Shown in pieces: positions 1 through 58,100 of a DNA stretch of 64,000 nt (position 1 is the first letter of the stretch; each line of letters starts with the position of its first letter). The DNA is taken from contig NC_086097.1 of NCBI RefSeq assembly GCF_963921235.1, positions 71,674,001 through 71,738,000 of the forward strand. The letters are read 5' to 3'. Both the position numbers and the translations under genes were made by a program. Below the pieces are notes generated by a model. It was not told where the DNA came from, ran no database searches, and saw only the letters and a program-made list of their open reading frames with translations. This DNA is from Mobula hypostoma (lineage: Eukaryota).

Positions 1-821
1 ACTTCCATCCAATTGATAGCTTTTGATTCTCATTAACATATCCAAATGACATTCACCTAAACGGTTTCTCAGCTTGTTTTTGAGTTGATTCGTTAGGCTA
101 AAACCCCGCTCACAGTCTGCACTAGATGCAAGAAAGGTTCCCCCAATGTCCATCAGCTGTGCAAGGTCGCAAAACTGTTCATTTTGAAGTACAAATGCCA
201 CCATTTGAGCAAAGTTTGAAATCGGTTTGGATTTAATTTTTTCTTGCACAGAAAATTTGAAATCATTAAACTGTCTAATTATTACAGTATTTTCAGCTAG
301 AAAATCATGATACTTTAGACATAAGGCATTAACCTGTTCATCGCTAAATGTGAAGTCACAATCTGCAATTGCGGAGAAATCAAAAGCTGACCATTCTTGT
401 ACCTCAACTCTGATCTCCTCTGGGTTTGATCGTTTTCACTCTCGCTCATCTGCACTCAGCGGTAATATGCGTAGCGCTCTTGTAACGAGTAATGACGGGT
501 TATGTTGCCTGAGCTTTTGTACACTGTACAAATGCGATTTACTTGCCAAATGATGCTTCAAGAAGTCAAGTTTCCAAATATCATCCCACGGAACAGGATA
601 GGTGAGGTGATGTAAATTAGTGCCGTGCATTGAAGTATTTGATAAACCGACTAACTAGTTACCAGAAACAGTTAGCTAAAAGATTATTTTCAGTAAGTAT
701 AATTATTAATTACTACATTATTTTAGGTAACTAACCTTTTGTGTGCACATTAATTTCTTTTGTGTGCTGGTTGAAAAACGTGTGTGCACGCGCACACACG
801 CACAGTTTAGAGGGAACTATG
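1..821 (-). mobile_element. Internally deleted hAT DNA transposon (runs off the left edge of the window)
   Basis: The minus frame reads WDDIWKLDFLKHHLASKSH (end of an N-terminal zinc finger), then a stop at 436-438, then in frame ...LASSADCERGFSLTNQLKNKLRNRLGECHLDMLMRIKS, a hAT C-terminal dimerization motif. TIR-like end ttagagggaactatg at 807-821. Confidence 0.8.
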
Positions 822-1122
822 GTTGTGACTTGTAATTCTCACATGTAAATGGCATTTGATGCAAGTTCAGATGCTAATGTCAAATCAGAGTTTGACGGAT
901 TTATGTTGACAATTATGCGCCAAACCATGCCTGAGGAATTAGTGACAATCAGCCAATACCTCATTGCAAAAGCTTCTGTTAAATGACCTAGTCCTGTCTT
1001 TATGTTCTTCGTTAGATCAGATTGGTATGAATTGACATTATAGCAACTCCTGTGGGGAGTCTGCATGGCTGACATCATTCAGTGTGTAAGACTAATCTGA
1101 TTCCAGTACTGCCATTTTGGAA

Positions 1123-1790
1123 TAATGTTCCCTCTAATTTGTAATGGACAGTGTGTGAAAAGATCTTGTGCTGTGCAACTTTTTATCCAATGACAACAAT
1201 ATATGCGCACTGAATTTTTAAGTGGAAGTAAACTTGAAGCTATTCTAAGGATAATAAACTACCAAGTCCAGTTCGTTGTTCATTGTTTAAAAGAAATAAA
1301 ATAAGAACTTCCATCTCCTCTGGGCTTGATTGTTTTTGCTCTTGCACACATATACACTCATATGCACTCCCACAAACATACGTAGCAGGCCTGTAGAGGG
1401 TAATGAAGAATTTTCTACCCAGTGCATATGTGATTTGCTTGTTAAATTATGCTTTAAAAAGTCAAGTTTTCACTATCACTCCATTGCTTCCCACTTGCAA
1501 ATTCTCCAGCAACCTCTGCATTGCGACAATACACACAGGTAACACCAGTTTCTGTATTGTACATAAATATTTGTCAAAGCTGTGCGTTCCTGACCTCATG
1601 AGTTTTCTGTGTAGCTGTTTCTACTTTTTTGTTAGGCCATTCTGCTTTAAATGAACGAGAAGTTCTTTGGCGCCTCACGCCCTTTGCTTCTTTGGAATTT
1701 GACTTTGTGGTCCAGTGGTTGGCACTGTTGGCAGCCAGTGATTAGTAGTGTTTCTCAATGGCTGGTGTTGGGGACATTTCTTTTCATTGA
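1123..1790 (-). mobile_element. Second, related hAT deletion derivative carrying a transposase N-terminal fragment
   Basis: Begins taatgttccctctaa, matching the TIR of the first copy. The minus strand encodes RSFKAEW...TCVYCRNAEVAGEFASGKQWSD/KLDFLKHNLTSKSH, with a stop and a frameshift, homologous to 436-630. Confidence 0.65.
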
Positions 1791-1902
1791 ATATGTCAAT
1801 GATATGGATGACTAAATTGATGGCTTTGTGGCCAAATTTACGGACAATACAAAGGTAGTTGGAGGAGTAAGTAGTATTGATGAAGCAGGGAGTCTGGAGA
1901 AG
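1790..1902 (+). mobile_element. Short CR1 RT fragment
   Basis: Translates as YVNDMDD*IDGFVAKFTDNTKVVGGV, a decayed CR1 NDLD..KFADDTKVGG motif. Confidence 0.6.
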
Positions 1903-2708
1903 ATTTATTGATACTGATGACCCTGAGTCCAAACATCTCATATTGCTGGCAACTAATAAACTCCTTATATTTCTATCCATGGATGACTAGTACTGTCAAT
2001 GGAGGCTGCTGCCAGCCATTTATCTGACCTGGATGCTGTCCTTGTTAGCTCCACAATCTGGTTGGCCATCAAATCAGACAGAGAGGCTGCTGCTGTGGTT
2101 CTGTCTGTTTAGTGAGTGGCTCTCGCATTTTTCTCTCTTTGTTAAACACTGCCTCCAACTATGGCCTGATAAGCCGCAGCTTTAACTTTCTAAGACAATT
2201 CTGGCACTCCCTCACTAGGTGCCCTAGTTCCTGGCACACAAGGAAGGGATTATGATATCACAATAACAACATCCATTACAGTCACTCGTCCCCCTCCTCT
2301 GGTCTATCTCACCAGCCATCGATGCTATTGCAGGTTATGTTGATCCTCAAATCTAAGATTTCCTGGTGGACTGAATCAAGCCTTCCTTTGGCATTTTCAG
2401 GAAGACTAGTTCATCTCTTCCTGGATTGTCTAGCCCTAAGTACTCCTTATATGCTTGATATTTGCACTCTGCATAATCCACGACAGGCTTATCATCGCTC
2501 TTAATCACTGACATTATTGTTCCCCAGTTACTCTCAGCTCCCTCTAGTCATTGCTTCACTTCCCCCTTAAAGGAGTGATATCTCTTTTTGTTACTGACTT
2601 TCCTGCTCGATGCCTGTGTACCATACTATCCCAAATATTCCTCATGAATTTCACTTTTACCAGCACATACATATCTTTTGCTTGCATCTAGTAAATTTCA
2701 ATCATTTC

Positions 2709-3417
2709 TTTCAGGGATCCTGCTGTTTCTGTAGCCAGCTGAGGTTGCTGGCCGAACTGAGTCTCGGAGCTTCCCTGGAGCAGAGATGGAACTGTCTGTT
2801 GTTCTCTGGTGCTTGTCTCCTCTTGTCCTCGCCTCCAAGGGGTAGGTCAGGCCGTCTTGCCGTTGCCCTATGGGGGAACATGTCTTGTCTTGTCTTTGCT
2901 TCTGTTGGGTAAGTCTGGCCATCCTGCCATTACCCAACAGATGGACCTGTCCCAACTTGGTGTGGAGAAGTTGAGTCCTGGCTTGTCTTAGGATAAGTCC
3001 TGGCTCTATGTTGATGTTTAGTTCCCAGTCTGCCTCTGAGCTCCAAGAACCCAAGCCTCGAGGATCCCGCGGCCAAGCTCAAGACCCAAGACCCCAAGCC
3101 TCGAGGATCCCAAGCCAAGCTCAAGACCCAAGACTCCAAGCCTCAAGCCATATCATGTCCTTGACTGGTTCCGGGGTCCGAGCCTGAGGCAAGACCCAGG
3201 TTCTGGGTCCTTGTCCAGTCTCGGGTTCGGAGTCCAAGCCTTGTCTCCTAGTCCATGGTTCCTAGTCCTGGTCCCACTTTCCCTAGCCCAACTCTGCATT
3301 CTTGTCCCTGCTCCTTGCCTGAATTCTGTCACATCCTTACCTTAGTCAAGTCCTGTTCCTTGTACTTCAGTGTCTGTGTCTTGCATTTGGGTCTGTTCCC
3401 AGCACCCCATTGTGACA
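2709..3417 (+). mobile_element. Probable solo LTR (fish Gypsy-type) inserted in the gag relic
   Basis: GC-richer block with internal tandem repeats, ending tcttgcatttgggtc...tgtgaca like fish Gypsy LTR ends. It splits the gag-like frame. No clear TSD. Confidence 0.45.
3051..3144. repeat. Tandem repeat, ~2.2 copies of a 42-43 bp unit
   Basis: ccaagcctcgaggatccc..gccaagctcaagacccaagac at 3051 and 3094, with a partial copy at 3136. Confidence 0.85.
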
Positions 3418-4219
3418 GAGACACTTCGTTAGGACCTGGCATGAGTAAGTCCTGGGCCCTTTCAGTGGTCAGGCCAGCGATCAAAACAGCAGACTAAGAG
3501 GATTGCCCCCGGGGTGAAGTCCATGGAGCATTCAGATAGAGACTACCCCATACCTTCCTGCAGGTTAATCAATGGGACTGAGATACCATTGTCAGATTAT
3601 TCTGACAATCAGCTGTCATGGTATTGTCATGGTGAACTGTTGCCTGTGAACCTGAAATGAAGTTACCTTGATGGTGCCCCTGCACACAGAATGACTACTG
3701 ATGACCACTATTGATAGCTATAGTTATCAGATGTAAAGGGACGAAGAGGATGTAATCAAGTTTCTGGAACATTTCATTGCTATCTCTGCTCCATAGCCAG
3801 TTAGGGAAGTTAGATAGTGTAGATGTACGTAGGTACACATTGGGATATGATAGGTTAGTCATTGGGAAAGGGATATGAAGTGAAGGGCATCTCCATAGTA
3901 CTGCTTAATCAGATCCTCCTTACGGCTTGGCCTTGCTGGGAGAGATTTCTGTCCAGAGGTATGTTAGAGAGTTTTTTAGAGTTATGTGGATATAACAGAT
4001 ATTAATTCAAGCAAAAAACACTCATCAGTTCTTGTACATAAATTCAGGAAGCTTAAAATTAGCCTTCAGTTTTTTTGTAAATTGCAGGCAGTAAATTGAA
4101 GTTACAAACCCAGGCTGCTCCACAGACCAAGAGGCTGCATATGCATCAGCCAGATGTTAAGACAATGGGGTTGCGTAATTGCCCTGTGTCAACTATGGTT
4201 AAAGGAACTTGCACCATTG

Positions 4220-4520
4220 TGTAAGTTCAGGGAAGTGTCCCTGCCGAGGTATTTAAACATTCAGAGGTGTCACCCACTGTAGATATGCAATTCCAGGGAA
4301 GCATTGCCAACCCAAAGTGATGACAAAGTAATGACAATGTCATTATAACTTTTGAAACTGTATTGGATCACCTACTGTTATCTTTGATCTTCAGGGTATA
4401 AAAATGTACTGTACCTTTGAGTTTGTGAGACTCTACTGAAGATGTCTCCAGAATGATGCCAACTCGTTGTGCTCAATAAAGACTTCTATATCACCAGCTT
4501 CAGTGACTTTAGGGATCACA
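4220..4520 (+). mobile_element. Retroviral-type LTR (~300 bp)
   Basis: Starts TGTAAG, has TATAAAA at 4397 and AATAAA at 4475, ends in CA at 4520, and is followed by a PBS. Confidence 0.7.
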
Positions 4521-4522
4521 TC

Positions 4523-4540
4523 TGGGGGCTAATCTGGGAT
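4523..4540 (+). promoter_or_regulatory. Primer-binding site, tRNA-Pro type
   Basis: TGGGGGCTAATCTGGGAT matches the canonical tRNA-Pro PBS TGGGGGCTCGTCCGGGAT at 15/18 positions and lies 2 nt after the LTR-terminal CA. Confidence 0.75.
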
Positions 4541-5432
4541 ATGTTCACAGCCCACTGAGTGGCTAGTGATTTAACAGTCCAAGGAAGTGAGTATTTTCAG
4601 AAGTAGCACCCATGTTTAGATCAATGACTACAGGATCACAAAGTATCAATGAATGTGGTGGAGAGATGTTTGTGCAAGAGACCAGCTATCAGGCAGTTTT
4701 GGGTGTCTTGGTGAAACAGGGCCACCAGTTGTGAAAAGTGGCTACTGACTGTTCGGAATGCCAGAGGGGTATGCATACACTCATTTGGGGGCATTATATA
4801 GTGGGATACTTGTTTGTGTGCTGGTGTATTTTAGAATAAATTTGAAATCTTGATAACAAGGATTTTAAATGCAAGGAAATATAACAGGTATTTTGAGTTC
4901 AGAGGCACATGTGGAAGATTGCAAGGTACCTACTCTGTAGTTTTACAATGACATTGTTCACATCAATACAATGCTTCCTTTGAATTATAGATCTTCAGTG
5001 GGAGACAGCCTCTGATTGGTCAGATACCTTGACTGGGACACTTACTCGTTGGTACAAATTTCTTAAACCCATAGTTGACGCAGGGCAATTAATACAACCC
5101 CATTGTCTTAAAATCTGGCTGATACATATGCAACCTCTCGGTCTGTGGAGCAGCATGGGTTTGTAACTTCAACTTACTGCTTGCAATTTACAGAACATTG
5201 AAGGCTAATTGCTAGCTTCTTGAATTTATCTACATTTACAATAACAACTGATGACAGGCTCTTGTTTGATTAAATATCTGCTCTATCTACATAACCCTAG
5301 AATACTCCCTTACCACCATAGTTCAGTATGTTCTAAGATTGTTTGGAATAAGGATAAGACTGGTCCTTAGGTGAAATGCTAAAATGAGGGAAAGCTCATT
5401 AGAATGGCAATAGGCAGGAATTGGGAGAATAT

Positions 5433-7885
5433 AAATATTGATTGGCATCTCCCTAGAGTGAGGGGTTTAGATGGGGTGGAGTTTGTTAGGTGTGTTCAGG
5501 AAGGTTTCTTAACACAATATGTAGATAAGCCTACAAGAGGAGAGGCTGTACTTGATCTGGTATTGGGAAATGAACCTGGTCAGGTGTCAGGTCTCTCAGT
5601 GGGAGAGCATTTTCGAGATAGTGATCACAATTACTCCTTTACTATAGCATTGGAGAGGGATAGGAACAGACAAGTTCAGGAAACATTTAATTGGAGTAAA
5701 CGGAACTATGAAGCTATCAGGTGGGAACTTGGAAGCATAAATTGGAAAGAGATGTTCTCAGGGAAATGTACAGAAGAAATGTGGCAAGTGTTCAGGGGAT
5801 ATTTGCGTGGGGTTCTGAGTAGGTACGTTCCAATGAGACATGGAAAGGATGGTAGGGTAGATAATCTGTGGTTCACAAAGGCTGTTGTAAGTCTAGTCAA
5901 GAAGAAAAGAAGAGCTACAAAAGGTTCAAAAAACTAGGTAATGATATGAATCTAGAAGATTATAAGGCTAGCAGGAAGGAGCTTAAGAATGAAATTAGGA
6001 GAGCCAGAAGGGGCCATGAGAAGGCTTTGGCAGACAGGATTAATGAAAACCCCAAGGCATTCTACAAGTATGTGAAGAACAAGAGGATAAGATATGAGAG
6101 AATAGGACCAATCAAGTGTGACAATGGAAAAGTGTGTATGGAACCAGAGGAAATAGCAAAGATACTTCATGAATACTTGCTTCAGTATTCACTATGGAAA
6201 TGGATCTTGGCGATTGTAGGGATGACTTGCAGTGGACTGAAAAGCTTGAGAATGTAGATGTTAAGAAAGAGGATGTGCTGGAGCTTTTGGAAAGCATCAA
6301 GTTGGATAAGTCCCGGGATTGGACGGGATGTACCCTAGGCTACGGCTACTCTGGGAGGTGAGGGAGGAGATTGCTGAGCCTCAGGTAATGATCTTTGCAT
6401 CATCAATGAGAACAGGAGAGGTTCCGGCGGACTGGGGGGGGGGTTGCGAATGTTCTTCTCTTATTCAAGAAAGGGAGTAGAGATAGCCCAGGAAATTATG
6501 GACCAGTGAGTCTTACTTCAGTGGTTGGTAAGTTGATGGAGAAGATCCTGAGAGGCAGGATTTATGAACATTTGAAGAGGCATAATATGATTAGGAATAG
6601 TCAGCCTGGCTTTGTCAAAGGCAGGTCGTGCCTTACGAGTCTGATTGAGTTTTTTGAGGATGTGACTAAGCACATTGATGAAGATAGAGCTGTAGATGTA
6701 GTGTATATGGATTTTAGCAAGGCATTTGATAAAGTACCCCATGCAAGGTTTATTGAGAAAGTAAGGAGGCATAGGATCCAAGGGGACATTGCTTTGTGGA
6801 TCCAGAACTGGCTTGCCCACAGAAGGCAAAGACTGGTTGTAGATGGTCATATTCTGCATGGAGGCTGGTGACCAGTGGTGTGCCTCAGGGATGTGTTCTG
6901 GGACCTCTACTCTTTGCGATTTTTATAAATGACCTGGATGAGGAAGTGGAGGGATGGGTTAGTAAATTTGCTGATGACACAAAGGTTAGGGGTGTTGTGG
7001 ATAGTGTGGAGGGCTGTCAGAGGTTACAATGGAACATTGATTGGAAGCAAAACTGGGCTGAGAAGTGGCAGATGGAGTTTAAGCCAGATAAGTGTGAGGT
7101 GGTTCATTTTGGTAGGTCAAATATGATGGCAGATTATAGTATTAATGGTAAGACTCTTGGCAATGTGGAGGATCAGAGAGATCTTGAGGTCTGCGTCCAT
7201 AGGACACTCAAAGCTGCTATACAGGTTGACTCTGTGGTTAAGAAGGCATACGGTGCTTTGACCTTCATCAATCGTGGGATTGAGTTTAAGAGCTGAGAGG
7301 TAATGTTGCAGCTATATAGGACCCTGGTCAGACCCCCCTTGGAGTACTGTGCTCAATTCTGCTCACCTCACAGTAGGAAGGACGTGGAAACCATATACCG
7401 TAAAGGGTGCAGAGGAGATTTACAAGGATGTTGCCTGGATTAGGGAGCATACCTTATGAGAATAGGTTGACTGAACTCGGCCTTTTCTCCTTGGAGCAAC
7501 GAAGGATGAGAGGTCACCTGACAGAGGTGTATAAGATAATGAGAGGCATTGATCATGTGGATAGTCAGAGGCTTTTCCCCAGGGCTGAAATAGCTAGCAT
7601 GAGAGGGCATAATTTTAAGGTGCTTGGAAGTAGGTACAGAGGAGATGTCAGGGGTAAGTTTTTTACGCAGAGAGTTGTGAGGGCGTGGAATTGGCTGCCA
7701 GCAGCGGCGGTGGAGGCGGAAATGACAGGGTCTTTTAAGAGACTCTAGATGGGTACATGAAGCTTAGAAAAATAGAGGGCTATGGGTAAGCCTAGGTAGT
7801 TCTAAGGTAGGGACATGTTTGGCCCAGTTTTGTGGGCCGAGGGGCCTGTATTGTGCTGTAGGTTTTCTATGTTTCTATGTTTCTA
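5433..7885 (+). mobile_element. CR1 LINE, 5'-truncated, frameshifted ORF2 (end of APE plus RT)
   Basis: PTRGEAVLDLVL, SDHN, YMDFSKAFDKVPH, SGVPQGCVLGPLLF, KFADDTKV; 3' tail (TTTCTATG)n. Confidence 0.95.
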
Positions 7886-17524: not shown

Positions 17525-18143
17525 AGTATTGAATATAAGAGCTAGAGTGTTATGATGAGGTTGTATAAGGCATTGGTGAGGCCAAATCTGGAGTACTGTG
17601 TTCAGTTTTGGTCACCAAATTACAGGAAGGATATAAATAAGGTTGAAAGAGTGCAGAGAAGGTTTACAAGGATGTTGCCGGGACTTGAGAAACTCAGTTA
17701 CAGAGAAAGGTTGAATAGGTTAGGACTTTATTCCCTGGAGCGTAGAAGAATGAGGGGAGATTTGATAGAGGTATATATAATTATGATGGGTATAGATAGA
17801 GTGAATGCAAGCAGGCTTTTTCCACTGAGGCAAGGGGAGAAAAAAACCAGAGGACATGGGTTAAGGGTGAGGGGGGAAAAGTTTAAAGGGAACATTGGGG
17901 GGGGGGCTTCTTCACACAGAGAGTGGTGGGAGTATGGAATGAGCTGCCAGATGAGGTGGTAAATGCAGGTTCTTTATTAACATTTAAGAATAAATTGGAC
18001 AGATACATGGATGGGAAGTGTATGGAGGGATATGGTCCGTGTGCAGGCCAGTGGGACTAGGCATAAAATGGTTCAAAACAGCCAAGAAGGGCCAAAAGGC
18101 CTGTTTCTGTGCCGTAGTTTTTCTATGGTTTCTATGGTTTCTA
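17525..18143 (+). mobile_element. Young CR1 3' fragment inserted in older CR1 debris (~17040-18420)
   Basis: LYKALVRPNLEYCVQFWSPNYRKDINKVERVQRRFTRMLPGL; tail (GGTTTCTAT)n; near-identical to 30212-30993. Confidence 0.93.
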
Positions 18144-27910: not shown

Positions 27911-30211
27911 GAACCTGAATGTCAGAAAAAATCATGAACAGCACTGACAGTTACAGACCGATTACGGGACAAACAGTGGGGGTTAAACAGCATGAGAAAG
28001 CCGTCATGGACACTCACAAAGGAATGTGTGAGTACAGTGAAAGACTCCTTGAATTTAAAGTGAAAATAATGTTGTGATGGCTTCATTCGGGAAAGTTGAC
28101 AAATTTGATAGCACTAATGAAGGCTGCAAACAACGTGAAGGAGCTAAAGAGAGCCCCTACACTTAGCTTAATGGGTGCAAGAACATAAGTCTCGTATGCA
28201 ACCCAGTAACCCCTGAAAAGCCAGCAAAATTGTTACAACTATACAAAATCATTTGGACCCTAAACTGCTGGTAATAGCTGAATGATTTTACAAAAGTAAC
28301 CAGTCAAAAGATGAAAACATTTCTGAATACATTGCAGAAATGCACAAACTTTCCCAGTACTGTGACTTTAGAGATGGACTTTCTGATGCATTAAGGGACG
28401 GTCTTGTATTCGGCTTGCATAGTCAAAACATTCAAAAAAGGCTATTATCTGAAGGAGACCTAACCTTAGAATGACCATTGATCGTTGCAATATCGTTAGA
28501 TACTGCAGCAAAGGATGCAGCAGAACAACAGAAAAGGAGCTTAGAATATCAAATGCACAAAATGTCCCTGAACAGTGCAACTAGCCAAAGATGTGATCGA
28601 TGTGGCAAATCCTCCCATGATGCAAATGACTGTTGGTTCAAAGAAAAAGTATGCAAAATGTCACAGACAGGATCCCACTACCTCTGCAGACAAAAGTTTA
28701 CACTAGTTACAGATCACCAGCCCCTTTTGTCCATTTTCAATCCCAGGAAGAGGATTCCAGTGATGACGACTACCCAGTTACAATGTTAGGCACTATTCAT
28801 AGGAGCCCAACTCTTACGACATAGAGTTCAAGGGTACCAATCAACATAGCAATTCTGATGGCTTGTCACATCTTCCACTCTTGGCAACTGAAGAAGTCAC
28901 CCAGCAGAAGTGTCCCACACCACATTGGTGGATCAGTTGCCTGTAACAAGTTGTGAAATACAAAGGAAAACAAAGAATGACCATACATTGACTAAGTCTG
29001 TGAAATCCCATGTAAGGATGGCCAGCTCAATGTAACTCTATGTTTCCAGAACTCTCTGCGAGACAAGACCAACTGATGGTTTGTCAAAGAACGCTGATGT
29101 GGGGATCTTGTGTTGTGGTTCCCTCTAAACTGCGCACCAGAGTGTTAGAAAATTTGCATGAAGGACACCTGGGTACAGTCAAGATGAAGAGTCTTGCCCG
29201 GAGCTATGTGTGGTGGCTGTGAGTAGATAAACAGATTGAAAGCTTGGCCAAAAGTTGTTCAGGATGCCAAAAGGTTCAAAATGTGCTCCCACAGCCACCA
29301 TTATACCCATGGGAGTGGCTGTCTTTGCCATGGCAAAGAGTACATATTGACTTAGTTGGGCCATTCATGAACTCCATGTCTCAGATTGCTGTGGATGCTC
29401 ATTTGGAGTGGCTGGAGGTTATACCAATAAAGTCAACCACTTCAGCAAAGTCTATCTCCACTCTGAGGACTACCTTTGCCAGAAATGGCTTACCAGAACA
29501 AATTGTGAGTGACAACGGGCCACAATACATGTCAGAAGAATTCTGACTGTTCATGAATAAAAATGGCATCAGACATTTCAAGTCAGCTCCTCACCACCCA
29601 GCAAGACATGGGTTAGCTGAAAGGTTTATCCAAACCTTCAAGAAGTCAGGTAAAGCGACGAACAAGAAGGGCATTCCTCTACAGCACAAGGTGGACAACT
29701 TCCTTTTTGTGTATTGCAACTCTGATAATGCAGCGTTGAATCAAACACCTGCAATGCTGTTCATGAACAGGAATCCGAGATCTCGCACAAACCTCCTGAA
29801 TACATATCTATGGAGGGAAGTACAGAATAAACAGTTCAGCCAGTTGCCAAGTGAAGCAGCAAGGAGCTTCGAGATTGGACAGGAAGTCTTAGTGCGTGAT
29901 TACCAAGAAGACAAGCTGACACCTGGTAGGGTAGCTACAAGAACTGGACCACTGGTGTACACAGTGGATGTTGGAGATCAGACATGGAGACGTCATGTTG
30001 ACCAGATACTGGATGCTCAACCGAAGAACACACCCGAGTCAACTGCTTCCAACAAGATGAACACATTACAGTCACTTGATTTACCTCTCAGTGATGATCA
30101 TGTCACTGACAGCAATGTGACACCAGTAACCGAGAAAGTTGCCGTAGACAAGACACCTAACAAACCTAATGGTTCTCCACAGGTCCAGAGGCAACACCCA
30201 AAAGACTGAAT

Positions 30212-30993
30212 CATAGAACCATAGAACCATAGAAACTACAGCACAGAAACAGGCCTTTTGGCCCTTCTTGGCTGTGCCGAACCATTCTCTGCCTAGTCCC
30301 ACTGACCTGCACACGGACCATATCCCTCCATACACCTCCCATCCATGTATCTGTCCAATTTATTCTTAAATGTTAAAAAAGAACCCGCATTTACCACCTC
30401 ATCTGGCAGCTCATTCCATACTCCCACCACTCTCTGTGTGAAGAAGCCCCCCCTAATGTTCCCTTTAAACTTTTCCCCCCTCACACTTAACCCATGTCCT
30501 CTGGTTTTTTTCTCCCCTTGCCTCAGTGGAAAAAGCCTGCTTGCATTCACTCTGTCTATACCCATCATAATTTTATATATCTCTATCAAATCTCCCCTCA
30601 TTCTTCTACGCTCCAGGGAATAAAGTCCTAACCTATTCAACCTTTCTCTGTAACTGAGTTTCTCAAGTCCCGGCAACATCCTTGTAAACCTTCTCTGCAC
30701 TCTTTCAACCTTATTTATATCCTTCCTGTAATTTGGTGACCAAAACTGAACACAATACTCCAGATTTGGCCTCACCAATGCCTTATACAACCTCATCATA
30801 ACATTCCAGCTCTTATACTGAATACTTTGATTAATAAGGGCCAATGTACCAAAAGCTCTCTTTACGACCCTATCTACCTGTGATGCCACTTTTAGGGAAT
30901 TTTGTATCTGTATTCCCAGATCCCTCTGCTCCACTGCACTCCTCAGTGCCTTACCATTAACCCTGTATGTTCTACGTTGGTTTGTCCTTCCAA
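30212..30993 (-). mobile_element. Young CR1 3' fragment nested in the Gypsy element
   Basis: Uninterrupted 213-aa ORF 30293-30934 (C-terminus of CR1 ORF2); tail (ATGGTTCT)n. Confidence 0.95.
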
Positions 30994-55169: not shown

Positions 55170-58100
55170 CACATGTTCCATAGGAGTGGTTTAAACTAAT
55201 GGGAACCAGTATGACAGAGCTGGGGACGTGCCAGCAGACTTGCAAGTAGATGATGGATGTAATATAAATGTAAGGAGGGGCAAACCAATGATTGGGAACA
55301 AATAGACCGAGCAAAGAGTTAATTTGTACCACAGAGGCAAAATTCAAAAGGACAAAGAATGCAGGACTGAAGGTGCTGTACATAAATGCATGTAGTCTTC
55401 AGAATAAGGTGGACAAACTCATGGTGCAATTAGAGATTGGATGGTATGGTGTCATGGGCATTACTGAATTGTGGCTGAAACAAGGTCATTGTTGGGAGCT
55501 TAACATCAAAGGATATACTTTCCATTGAAAGAACAGGCAGGAAAGCATAGGTGGTGGTGTGGCTCTGTTGGTAAGAGATGGAATTACTTCTTTAGAAAGA
55601 AGGTGAAATAGGGGCAGAAAATGTTGAATCTTTGTGGGTGGAGTGAAGAAACTGTAAGGGTAAAAGAACCATTATGAGAATCATATATAGGTTTCCAAAT
55701 AGTAGTCAAGATGTGGGGTTGAGATTACAGAGGGAGCTGGAAAGGGCATATAATGTCACAGTTGTAATAGGAGACTTCAATATCCAAAGGGATTGGAAAA
55801 ATCAGGTTGGTATCGGATTGCAAGACAGGATATTTGTTGAATGCCTACAAGGTAGTTTTTTAGAACAGCTTGTGCTTCAGCCTACTTGGGGAAAGCCTAT
55901 CTTAGATTGGGTGTTGTGTAACAATACAGATTTTATTAGGGAGTTTAAGGTAAAGAAACTCTTATGAGTCAGTGATCATATAATTGAATTCATACCGCAA
56001 TTTGAGAGTGAAAAGCATGTATCTGGATCACAATGGAATAAAGGGAATTACGTAGGCATGAGAGAGGAGCTTGCCCAGGTGGATTGGAGAAGGATACTTG
56101 TGGGGATGGTGGCACAGCAGAAATGGCTGAAGTTTCTGGGGATAGTTCACAAGGAGCAGGATAGATATGTCCCACAGAAGTTGTTCTCAAGTGGCAGGGG
56201 GAGGCAACTGTGGCTGACAAGGGACGTTAAGGTCTGCATAAAAGCCGAGGAAAGGGCATATAATGTAGCCAAAATGAGTGGGAAGTTGGATGGTTGGGAA
56301 GGTTTTAAAATCCAACAAAAGGCAACCAAAAAGCCATAAGAAGGGAAAAGATGAAATATGAGGGCAAACTAGCCAATAATATAAAGCAGGATACTAAAAG
56401 TTTTTTTTCAGTTATATGAAGAGTAAAAGAGAGGTGAGCATTGACATTGGACTGCTAGAAAATGATGCTGGTGAGGTAGTAATGGGGACAAATAAATGAC
56501 ATATGAACTTAATGGGTACTTTGCTTCTGTCTTCAATGTGGAAGACACTAGCAGTGTGCCAGAGGTCCATGATTGCCAGGGAGCAGGAGTGAGAGCCATT
56601 ACTATTCCAAAGGAAGACGTGCTGGGCAACCTCAAAGGTCTTAAGGTGGATAAGTCATCAGGACCAGATGGACTACATCCCAGAATCCGGAGAGAAGTCG
56701 CTGAAGAGATAGCAGGTGCAATGGTCATGATCTTTCAAGAATCACTTGATTCTGGCATGTTTCTGGAGGACTGGAACATTGCAAATGCTACTCCACTCTT
56801 TAAGAAAGGAAGGAAGGCAAAAGAAAGGAAATTATAGGCCAGTTAGCCCAACCTCAGTGGTTGGGAAAATGTTGGAGTCCATTATTAAGGATGAGGTTTC
56901 GGGGTACTTGGGGGACTAAGGATAAAATAAGTCAAAGTCAGCATGGTTTCCATGAAGGGAAATCTTGCCTGAAAAATCTGTTAGATTTCTTCAAAGAAGT
57001 AACAAGTAGGGTGGACAAAGGAGAGGCAGTGGATGTCATTTACTTGGATAATCATCAGGCATTTGATAAAGTGCCACACTGAAGCTGCTTAACAAGATAA
57101 AATTCTATGGCGTTACAGGAAAGATACTGGCATGGATAGAGGAATGGCTGACAAGCAGGTGGTAGTGAGCGGGGGCCTTTTCTGGTTGGCTGCCTGTGAC
57201 TAGCGGTGTTCTTCAGTGGACAGGATTAGGTCACTGCTTTTCACATTGTTTGACAATGATTTAGATAATGGAATTGATGGCTTTCTGGCAAAGTTTTCAG
57301 ATGATACAAAATTAGGTGGAGGAGTAGGTAGTGCTGAGGAAGCAATGTGATTGCAACAGGACTTAGACAAGTTGGAAGAATGGGCAAAAAAAATGACAAA
57401 TGGAATACAGTGTTGTGAAATGTATGATCATGCATTTTGATAGAAGGAACAACAGTGTGGACTGTTATTTAAATGGGGAGAAGGTTCAAACATCAGAGGT
57501 CTAGAGGGACTTAGGAGTCCTCGTGCAAGACTCCCAGAAGGTTAATTTACAGGTTGAGTGTGTGGTAAAGAAGGCAAAAGCAATGTTGGCATTCATTTCA
57601 AGGGGAATAGAATATAAAAGCAAGGAGATAATCCTGAGCCTTTCTGAGATATGGGGCCCAAAACTGTTGGAGTATTGTCAACAGTTTTGGGCCCCATATC
57701 TCAGAAAGGATGTGTTGTCATTGGAGAGAGTCCAGAGGAGGACCACAAGGATGATTCTGGGAATGATGGGTTAACATATGAGGAGTATTTGGCAGCTTTG
57801 GGCCTGTACTCACTGGAATTTAGAAGAACGCAGGGGGAATCTCATCAAAACCTACCGAATGTGGATGTGGAGAGGATGTTTCCTATGGTAGGAGTGTCCA
57901 GAAATAGAGGGCACAGCCTCACAATTGAGGGATGATCCTTTAGTACAGACATTAGGAGGAACTTTTTTAGCCATGGAGTAGTGAATCTGTGAAATGCTCT
58001 GCCACAGACAGCTGTGGAGACCAAGACCATGGATATATTTAAAGTGAAAATTGATAGTTTCCTGATTGGTCAGGGCATTAAAGGTTATGGTGAGAAATCA

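What the first reader, a model, noticed from the sequence alone, without database searches (positions are those of the whole stretch)
1905..5430. Hidden endogenous retrovirus-like relic: tRNA-Pro PBS, MHR-like capsid, two zinc knuckles, protease
Seen: an LTR (4220-4520) and 15/18 Pro-PBS on the plus strand. On the minus strand there is a capsid MHR-like peptide (2535-2377), two decayed CX2CX4HX4C knuckles (2245-2204, 2187-2146) and LDSGSSVS (1932-1909), in retroviral order. Established: a Pro PBS and this MHR pattern are typical of class I (gamma/epsilon-like) retroviruses, and gammaretroviral Gag normally has one knuckle. Inference: possibly a poorly described chondrichthyan ERV lineage. No RT is present here to place it.
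Basis: partly seen in the sequence, partly recalled or inferred. Interest (0 to 1): 0.7.

Follow-up and report, generated by a model that had tools for sequence, protein, structure and literature searches.

The report
Scrambled snakehead-like retrovirus fossil
This is a dead, scrambled piece of an old retrovirus in what is likely a shark or ray genome; its capsid, two zinc knuckles and protease start match proteins of a ray, a shark and sea turtles that likely belong to the little-studied snakehead-retrovirus group, while the nearby end-repeat points the other way and only possibly comes from the same virus.

Summary
The relic is real but differently built and differently placed than first read. 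Minus strand 2729-1906 is a decayed gag-pro: alone it gets only a sub-threshold Pfam hit, but it matches Gag proteins of a devil ray (46%, E 3.5e-20), horn shark and sea turtles; three of these four have two CCHC knuckles. The linked Pol proteins are retroviral (dual RNase H, far from Gypsy), score equally against MLV and foamy RT (135 vs 132 bits) and carry snakehead-retrovirus (SnRV) motifs, not gamma/epsilon or lokiretrovirus ones; the horn-shark Gag shares a motif with the SnRV-like elephant-shark CmiERV lineage I. So likely SnRV-like, not class I. The LTR is 3962-4520 (not 4220), with a 15/18 Pro primer site, but it points away from gag; a second, inverted LTR piece (5313-4943) lies on gag's strand. 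Whether this LTR family belongs to this Gag is unproven (about even odds). The junctions are shared with related organisms, so the scramble is old. SnRV and CmiERV-I have one knuckle; two here is a modest variant. No earlier look-alike in this scan. Ordinary dead locus, mildly useful pointer to an under-described lineage.

The parts
1791..1908 (+). CR1-like LINE fragment that cuts off the protease (boundary of the relic; not part of it)
   Evidence: very high depth and loose ends at 1791; similar to 57185-57344; CR1 label read by eye and recalled
1906..1965 (-). start of aspartic protease, LDSGSSVS at 1932-1909; truncated by the LINE
   Evidence: aligns to the RVP domain of P0004; weak alone (24 of 200 shuffles as good)
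1992..2084 (-). spacer between nucleocapsid and protease
   Evidence: aligns to P0004 residues 160-190, 2 of 200 shuffles as good
2146..2187 (-). second zinc knuckle, decayed
   Evidence: matches P0004 knuckle 2, 0 of 200 shuffles as good; weak hits to lentiviral NC
2204..2245 (-). first zinc knuckle, decayed
   Evidence: zf-CCHC E 0.046, below cut-off; 2 of 200 shuffles as good
2287..2595 (-). capsid C-terminal domain with MHR-like segment (2535-2377)
   Evidence: 79 bits with profile A2; 46% to P0004, E 3.5e-20
2577..2729 (-). end of the capsid N-terminal domain; the rest of gag is missing
   Evidence: 26 bits with profile A2; tblastn to P0013
2715..3417 (+). unrelated very high-copy repeat ending in TGACA (Gypsy-type LTR, inferred), without a visible target-site duplication; younger than the relic
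   Evidence: summed depth 10^4-10^5; contigs of runs X10 and X9 stop matching at 2714 and 3418; 42-nt tandem unit
3418..3961 (+). multi-copy segment before the LTR, likely the 3' end of an internal region
   Evidence: other copies join 3890 to 3958 in 3 of 4 runs; no Pfam hit; no match to relatives' Gag start or Pol end
3962..4520 (+). complete LTR, 559 bp, TGT...ACA, TATA box at 4397, AATAAA at 4475
   Evidence: boundaries from loose ends of other copies at 3962 and 4505; motifs
4523..4540 (+). tRNA-Pro-type primer binding site, 15/18, two bases after the LTR
   Evidence: only site of 13/18 or better in the window
4541..4942 (+). leader, cut off before any recognisable gag
   Evidence: collinear in a contig of run X9; no match to P0010 residues 1-260 above shuffles
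4943..5313 (-). inverted partial (U3-side) copy of the same LTR family, on the strand of gag
   Evidence: 78% over 356 nt to 3963-4306, extends to 4348; 17% mismatches, K2P 0.19

Best explanation
The stretch is a dead, rearranged endogenous retrovirus remnant: a broken gag-pro on the minus strand, likely from a snakehead-retrovirus-like (SnRV-like) lineage of sharks, rays and sea turtles, beside two copies of one LTR family that likely belong to the same virus. Shown: capsid, two knuckles and protease start are spread over all three minus-strand frames with stops; a LINE cuts the protease; no pol or env is present; the plus-strand LTR has a Pro-type primer site and points away from gag. Inferred: the ancestor primed reverse transcription with tRNA-Pro, packaged its RNA with a two-knuckle nucleocapsid, and spread to many sites; here a minus-strand provirus (LTR start at 5313, gag-pro at 2729-1906) lost its middle to a 1.5-kb piece (3' end, LTR, primer site, leader) that was inverted or inserted from a second copy, before the related organisms in the sequencing runs split; a younger repeat then landed at 2715-3417. 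It makes no protein now.
For: Gag relatives: 5 of 14 phmmer hits are Gag-like: P0004 devil ray, P0010 horn shark, P0013 and P0016 sea turtles, P0017 unnamed; two complete knuckles in 3 of the 4 long ones. Link to Pol: P0010 holds this Gag and an RT in one gene model; the protease start of P0004 is 61% identical over 54 residues to P0038 (E 2e-17), whose cluster holds a Mustelus protein. Retrovirus: tether plus second RNase H in P0038 and P0041; starred separation from Gypsy loci. SnRV-like: RT core scores 135 bits to MLV, 132 to a foamy RT, 80 to Ty3, while a gamma-type control scores 768 to MLV and 173 to foamy over its whole Pol; 6 of 6 clade proteins have LTIDY and LPQGFHN, 0 of 6 have QDLR/HDLR or CPFG, the SnRV pattern in the labelled alignment of PMC7947760 (by eye); P0010 shares a DWG-x-L-x-EEAV-x-Y motif with CmiERV scaffold 2, the SnRV-like lineage I of PMC4422223 (by eye). 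LTR link: the inverted LTR piece lies on gag's strand; other copies differ from the window by about 15-18% in both LTR and capsid; TGT...ACA ends are described for class III ERVs (PMC8278194). Age: contigs of run X9 bridge the LINE-protease junction and the leader-inverted LTR junction at about 93% identity.
Against: No RT in the window, so placement rests on relatives at 24-46% Gag identity. The tree backbone is unresolved, holds no labelled SnRV, epsilon or ERV-L sequence, and does not reject grouping with gamma-type RTs (p-AU 0.059). P0010 is a gene model without protease and with a decayed RT centre. No locus was seen in which this LTR and primer site lead into this gag; the leader shows no Gag start. 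The SnRV-like CmiERV-I has a different primer site (Ser-type, recalled) and one knuckle. Language-model neighbours of the capsid are Gag_p30 and Gag_p24 clusters, all under 0.9. The rearrangement needs at least two events and cannot be ordered from these data.
Confidence: 0.5

Rival explanations
1. Two unrelated retroviral families lie side by side: an SnRV-like gag-pro relic, and LTR pieces with a Pro primer site from a separate class I ERV family.
For: Primer site and gag are on opposite strands; no Gag start in the leader; no clean empty site across 2715-3417, so the original distance is unknown; Pro priming is typical of gamma-type viruses (recalled); CmiERV-I uses another primer site; earlier scan notes report class I ERVs in this genome (not tested here).
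Against: A copy of this LTR family sits upstream on gag's strand; similar divergence of other copies in both parts; primer sites vary within ERV groups (PMC1224870, passage).
Confidence: 0.3
2. One reading: the whole is an epsilon-like or gamma-like class I ERV.
For: Pro primer site; epsilon viruses have two knuckles; MLV RT is narrowly the best solved match; capsid neighbours include Gag_p30 clusters; grouping with gamma-type RTs not rejected.
Against: No Gag_p30 hit in any of 5 Gag-like relatives; 0 of 6 clade RTs have the QDLR/HDLR motif that all 6 gamma and epsilon rows read have; MLV and foamy scores are equal, unlike the gamma control; Gag motif shared with CmiERV lineage I.
Confidence: 0.14
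3. The gag-pro is from a Ty3/Gypsy retrotransposon or a lokiretrovirus.
For: Two knuckles, a D-S-G motif and TGT...ACA ends occur in Gypsy elements (recalled); lokiretroviruses share LTIDY and have decayed copies in turtles.
Against: Dual RNase H and retroviral RT in relatives; starred split from Gypsy loci; lokiretrovirus RTs read CPFG and the LPQGFHNS motif has 0 occurrences in the held part of that supplement; the window's own Gypsy element scores only 8.8 bits with the Gag profile.
Confidence: 0.05

Closest known systems
CmiERV lineage I (elephant shark, scaffold 2; Han 2015, PMC4422223: part 1 of 2 of the text and part 1 of 3 of supplement 1 read)
   Same: Cartilaginous-fish ERV that clusters with SnRV; LTR begins TGTTAG as here; Gag motif shared with relative P0010; RT motifs of the same pattern as the relatives' Pol (by eye).
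   Different: One zinc knuckle and a Ser-type primer site (tRNA identity recalled) against two knuckles and, if linked, Pro here; complete with env, while this locus has no pol or env.
Snakehead retrovirus (SnRV) and the SnRV-like clade / clade Huo (PMC6001957, PMC4977317, PMC12193657, PMC1224870: passages; RT row in supplement of PMC7947760, part 68 of 82)
   Same: RT motifs RLTIDY, DIxNGFW, LPQGFH in the relatives; intermediate between class I and spuma-like; GPY/F-like motif after integrase in P0041; hosts across fish and reptiles.
   Different: SnRV has one knuckle; its accessory genes and env could not be compared here.
Ovex1 (chicken; PMC2717909, passages)
   Same: MHR of the Q-x3-E-x4-Y-x2-R-K type like the relatives; Gag related to SnRV.
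   Different: No knuckle, no primer site, conserved single-copy gene; this locus is decayed.
Epsilonretroviruses (WDSV, Xen-1) and CmiERV lineages II-III
   Same: Two knuckles, fish hosts.
   Different: RT motif HDLR/QDLR and DLxNAF, absent in 6 of 6 clade proteins.
ERV3/ERV-L and ERV4 (PMC4299795, PMC8278194: passages)
   Same: Non-class I/II RT; TGT...ACA ends.
   Different: Both lack Gag zinc fingers and the GPY/F motif; this family has them.

Membership tests
Retroviridae (ERV) | gag with capsid/MHR and nucleocapsid followed by protease | tested here: met
   decayed in the window, intact in P0004
Retroviridae (ERV) | retroviral RT with tether and second RNase H | tested here: met
   in relatives only (P0038, P0041); the window has no pol
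Retroviridae (ERV) | env gene | not testable with these tools
   no DNA of a full-length relative could be fetched; no env hit in the window frames
Retroviridae (ERV) | LTR and 18-nt primer site upstream of gag in the same direction | tested here: not met
   LTR and primer site exist but on the opposite strand; explained only by rearrangement or a second element
SnRV-like clade (clade Huo) | RT groups with SnRV | tested here: inconclusive
   no labelled SnRV in the tree; outside the gamma-type clade, backbone open; motif pattern matches SnRV by eye
SnRV-like clade (clade Huo) | Gag related to SnRV-like ERVs | tested here: met
   motif shared by P0010 and CmiERV lineage I, read by eye without a score
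SnRV-like clade (clade Huo) | single zinc knuckle as in SnRV (descriptive, not defining for the clade) | tested here: not met
   two knuckles in the window and in 3 of 4 relatives
Class I (gamma/epsilon) | RT with QDLR/HDLR and DLxxAF motifs, much closer to MLV than to foamy | tested here: not met
   0 of 6 clade proteins; 135 vs 132 bits against 768 vs 173 for the control
Class I (gamma/epsilon) | Gag_p30 capsid profile | tested here: not met
   no hit in 18 window frames or 5 relatives; only sub-threshold Atlas neighbours
Lokiretrovirus | RT with CPFG motif; paramyxo-like Env | tested here: not met
   0 of 6 with CPFG; env untested
Ty3/Gypsy | Gypsy-clade RT with single RNase H | tested here: not met
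ERV3/ERV4 | no Gag zinc finger, no GPY/F motif | tested here: not met

The most novel reading that the evidence does not exclude
An undescribed SnRV-related lineage shared by rays, sharks and sea turtles that keeps two nucleocapsid knuckles (the state from which SnRV, with one, and spuma-like viruses, with none, would have been reduced) and primes with tRNA-Pro; long uninterrupted Pol frames among its relatives (P0041, 1166 residues) would mean that some members spread recently.
Probability: 0.3. Interest if true: 0.5.

Novelty: new member of a known kind. Interest (0 to 1): 0.3.

Why it matters
The locus itself is dead and does nothing. It points to a retroviral family of cartilaginous fishes and turtles whose proteins sit in databases as 'uncharacterized' and whose capsid escapes Pfam. 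SnRV-like ERVs are known from sharks but are thinly described; a two-knuckle member would fit the proposal that knuckles were lost several times (PMC1224870), and a ray-shark-turtle distribution would fit the reported role of turtles as transmission hubs (PMC6001957). It also shows that a primer site and a gag lying near each other should not be read as one element, nor Pro priming as proof of class I.

Tried and rejected
No whole genome is held for this window, so copies could not be retrieved. Word-indexed search with the 64-residue capsid frame: 0 of 12 candidates; with profile A2 among longer proteins only P0010. 9 of the 14 phmmer hits (8 FG-GAP repeat proteins and P0012) are unrelated and were dropped. 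DNA of relatives not found in viral, metagenome or prokaryote collections; one search gave 14 distant loci (22-32%), 8 of which served as Gypsy-like outgroup. Rfam: nothing relevant; no tRNA gene in the window. No RNA holder listed; this says nothing on expression. Structure model of the P0010 Gag part was poor (pLDDT 50) and gave no match at E 0.001; its weak top rows were retroviral capsids and nucleocapsids; not used as evidence. DIRS-like inverted terminal repeats rejected: the arms are an ordinary LTR with a primer site and a truncated copy. The idea that 3418-3961 holds the missing gag start, or the leader does, found no support. The D-S-G motif is no lineage marker: contigs of other organisms differ at that codon. 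Dating with the shark rate assumed in PMC4422223 was not done, as that rate is an assumption; summed contig depth was not taken as a copy number. The test of the clade together with Gypsy (p-AU 0.29) only probes the root and was not used. Supplement 6 of PMC6001957 holds names only; its supplement 7 was not searched. Seven literature searches listed no paper describing a two-knuckle or Pro-primed SnRV-like ERV of elasmobranchs; Repbase, Dfam, Hayward 2015 and Hart 1996 could not be or were not read, so the family may already be catalogued.
Full report
Setting. The window is repeat-rich vertebrate DNA with many LINE fragments. The closest named proteins come from a ray, a shark and sea turtles, and earlier scan notes call the genome ray-like (not tested here). 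No assembly is held, so other copies were seen only as short contigs of 4 public runs.

The peptides are there. The MHR-like stretch (2535-2377), two damaged knuckles (2245-2204, 2187-2146) and LDSGSSVS (1932-1909) read as stated. Alone they are not significant: 1 of 18 frames gave a Pfam hit, zf-CCHC below its cut-off, and solved-structure hits were at E 0.86 or worse. A search of 1.84 billion proteins with the main frame gave 14 hits; 5 are Gag-like and 9 are unrelated and were dropped. The best, P0004 (Mobula hypostoma), is 46% identical (E 3.5e-20) and has capsid end, two knuckles and an RVP domain; P0010 (Heterodontus francisci) has the Gag and an RT; P0013 and P0016 are from sea turtles. 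A profile of four of them scores 79 bits at 2595-2287 and 26 bits at 2729-2577; the reversed window reaches 3.4. The matches lie in all three minus-strand frames with about six changes of frame and several stops: the gene is dead. A LINE fragment cuts the protease at about 1908, and no pol of this family is in the window.

What kind of element. An RT search with P0010 gave 18 proteins. The closest (P0019, P0020 at 54-55%, with cluster members P0036 from Mustelus asterias, P0038 and P0041) are tied to the Gag a second way: the protease start of P0004 is 61% identical to that of P0038. P0038 and P0041 have a tether and a second RNase H, the retroviral arrangement described in PMC7947760 (part 1 of 4 read). 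In trees of 29 and 19 rows the retrovirus-like rows are split from Gypsy-like loci with starred support, and the four gamma-type proteins form a starred clade without ours; the backbone is open and grouping ours with the gamma-type rows is not rejected (p-AU 0.059). No labelled SnRV, epsilon or ERV-L sequence was in these trees. The RT core of P0041 scores 135 bits to MLV, 132 to the best foamy RT, 80 to Ty3 and 74 or less to lentiviral RTs; the gamma-type control P0033 scores 768 to MLV and 173 to foamy over its whole Pol (not the same stretch). In the labelled alignment of PMC7947760 (supplement part 68 of 82, read by eye) the 4 gamma and 2 epsilon rows have QDLR or HDLR, the 5 classical foamy rows VLDYR, and SnRV has RLTIDY, DISNGFW and LPQGFH; lokiretroviruses have LTIDY but CPFG; ERV-L rows were not in that part. 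Of 17 proteins checked, all 6 of our clade have LTIDY and LPQGFHN, 5 of 6 DIANGFW, none QDLR/HDLR or CPFG. CmiERV scaffold 2, the SnRV-like lineage I of PMC4422223, shows by eye a DWG-x-L-x-EEAV-x-Y Gag motif also in P0010, and the same RT pattern, but one knuckle and another primer site. I put the SnRV-like placement at about 0.8, class I at about 0.14.

Knuckles. Two complete knuckles occur in 3 of 4 long relatives. PMC1224870 (passages) reports two in epsilon viruses and HERV-H, one in SnRV, none in spuma-like elements, and reads this as repeated loss; PMC4299795 (passages) reports none in ERV3 and ERV4 and leaves SnRV relatives unclassified. Two knuckles are therefore a variant for the SnRV group, not a surprise for retroviruses.

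The LTR. Other copies start at 3962 with unrelated flanks and diverge after 4505; the LTR is 3962-4520, TGT...ACA, with TATA at 4397 and AATAAA at 4475. The 15/18 Pro-type site at 4523 is the only one of 13/18 or better in the window. It reads away from gag. Upstream, 3760-3961 is multi-copy and joined to the LTR start in other copies (joint 3890 to 3958 in 3 of 4 runs), so this LTR has a likely 3' end before it and a primer site after it, as in a tandem or recombined provirus (inference). A second copy of the LTR's first 386 bases lies inverted at 5313-4943, with 17% mismatches, on gag's strand. The segment 2715-3417 is a separate very high-copy repeat with no visible target-site duplication; contigs of X10 and X9 stop matching at 2714 and 3418, and X10 has no cover at 3489 and 3508, so DNA was probably lost there and the original distance between gag and the LTRs is unknown. 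Neither the leader nor 3418-3961 matches the relatives' Gag start or Pol end above shuffles. The link of LTR to gag is thus indirect: same strand for the partial copy, and similar divergence of other copies (about 15-18% in both parts, from the few pieces listed). I give it about 0.6.

Age. Contigs of run X9 bridge the LINE-protease junction (1873-2535, 44 other letters in 675) and the leader-inverted LTR junction (4863-5223, 25 in 374), and X10 holds 2002-2373; the arrangement predates the split of these organisms. The piece tables are cut, so absences in them prove nothing.

How it most likely arose. Shown: dead gag-pro, a full LTR with primer site and truncated leader, an inverted partial LTR, later insertions. 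Inferred: a provirus of an SnRV-like family integrated on the minus strand; its middle was replaced by an inverted piece of itself or of a second copy; LINEs and another repeat then cut it further. Rival: the LTR pieces come from a separate class I family (0.3).

Verdict. Observation partly confirmed; retrovirus yes, class I probably not; new member of a known kind. Seven paper searches listed no description of this family, but repeat libraries could not be checked. Look-ups by sequence in this scan were blank, as was one by words. Papers: PMC4422223 part 1 of 2 and supplement 1 part 1 of 3 plus passages; PMC7947760 part 1 of 4, supplement part 68 and passages; PMC8278194, PMC4977317, PMC6001957, PMC12193657, PMC4299795, PMC10435555, PMC1224870, PMC2717909, PMC4131045 passages only. 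Interest 0.3.

Noticed in passing
window 28001-29900 (+): Decayed Gypsy-type element with gag knuckle, RNase H remnant and integrase (Integrase_H2C2 E 1.6e-13, rve E 2.1e-9); RT appears deleted.
   Followed up: partly
window 1-1790 (-): Peptides that look by eye like the start and end of a hAT-type transposase (recalled; no Pfam hit), with a 65% direct repeat at 406-588 and 1306-1483.
   Followed up: partly
window 5433 onward (+): CR1-like LINE with RT (RVT_1 E 8.7e-16); a contig of run X9 matches 5204-5433 and goes on for 989 other letters, so this insertion may be absent in that organism (table cut).
   Followed up: no
window 17525-18120 and 30233-30826: Two LINE 3' fragments in inverted orientation, 95% complementary over about 600 bases.
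   Followed up: no
proteins P0038, P0041, P0022, P0023: Long Pol frames (1057-1172 residues) of the same broad RT type in unnamed metagenome records; P0022 and P0023 have YCDD at the RT centre and P0023 clusters with herring proteins.
   Followed up: partly
protein P0032: A Pol-like protein fused to an unrelated N-terminus, with long branch and decayed integrase centre, possibly a domesticated retroviral gene.
   Followed up: no
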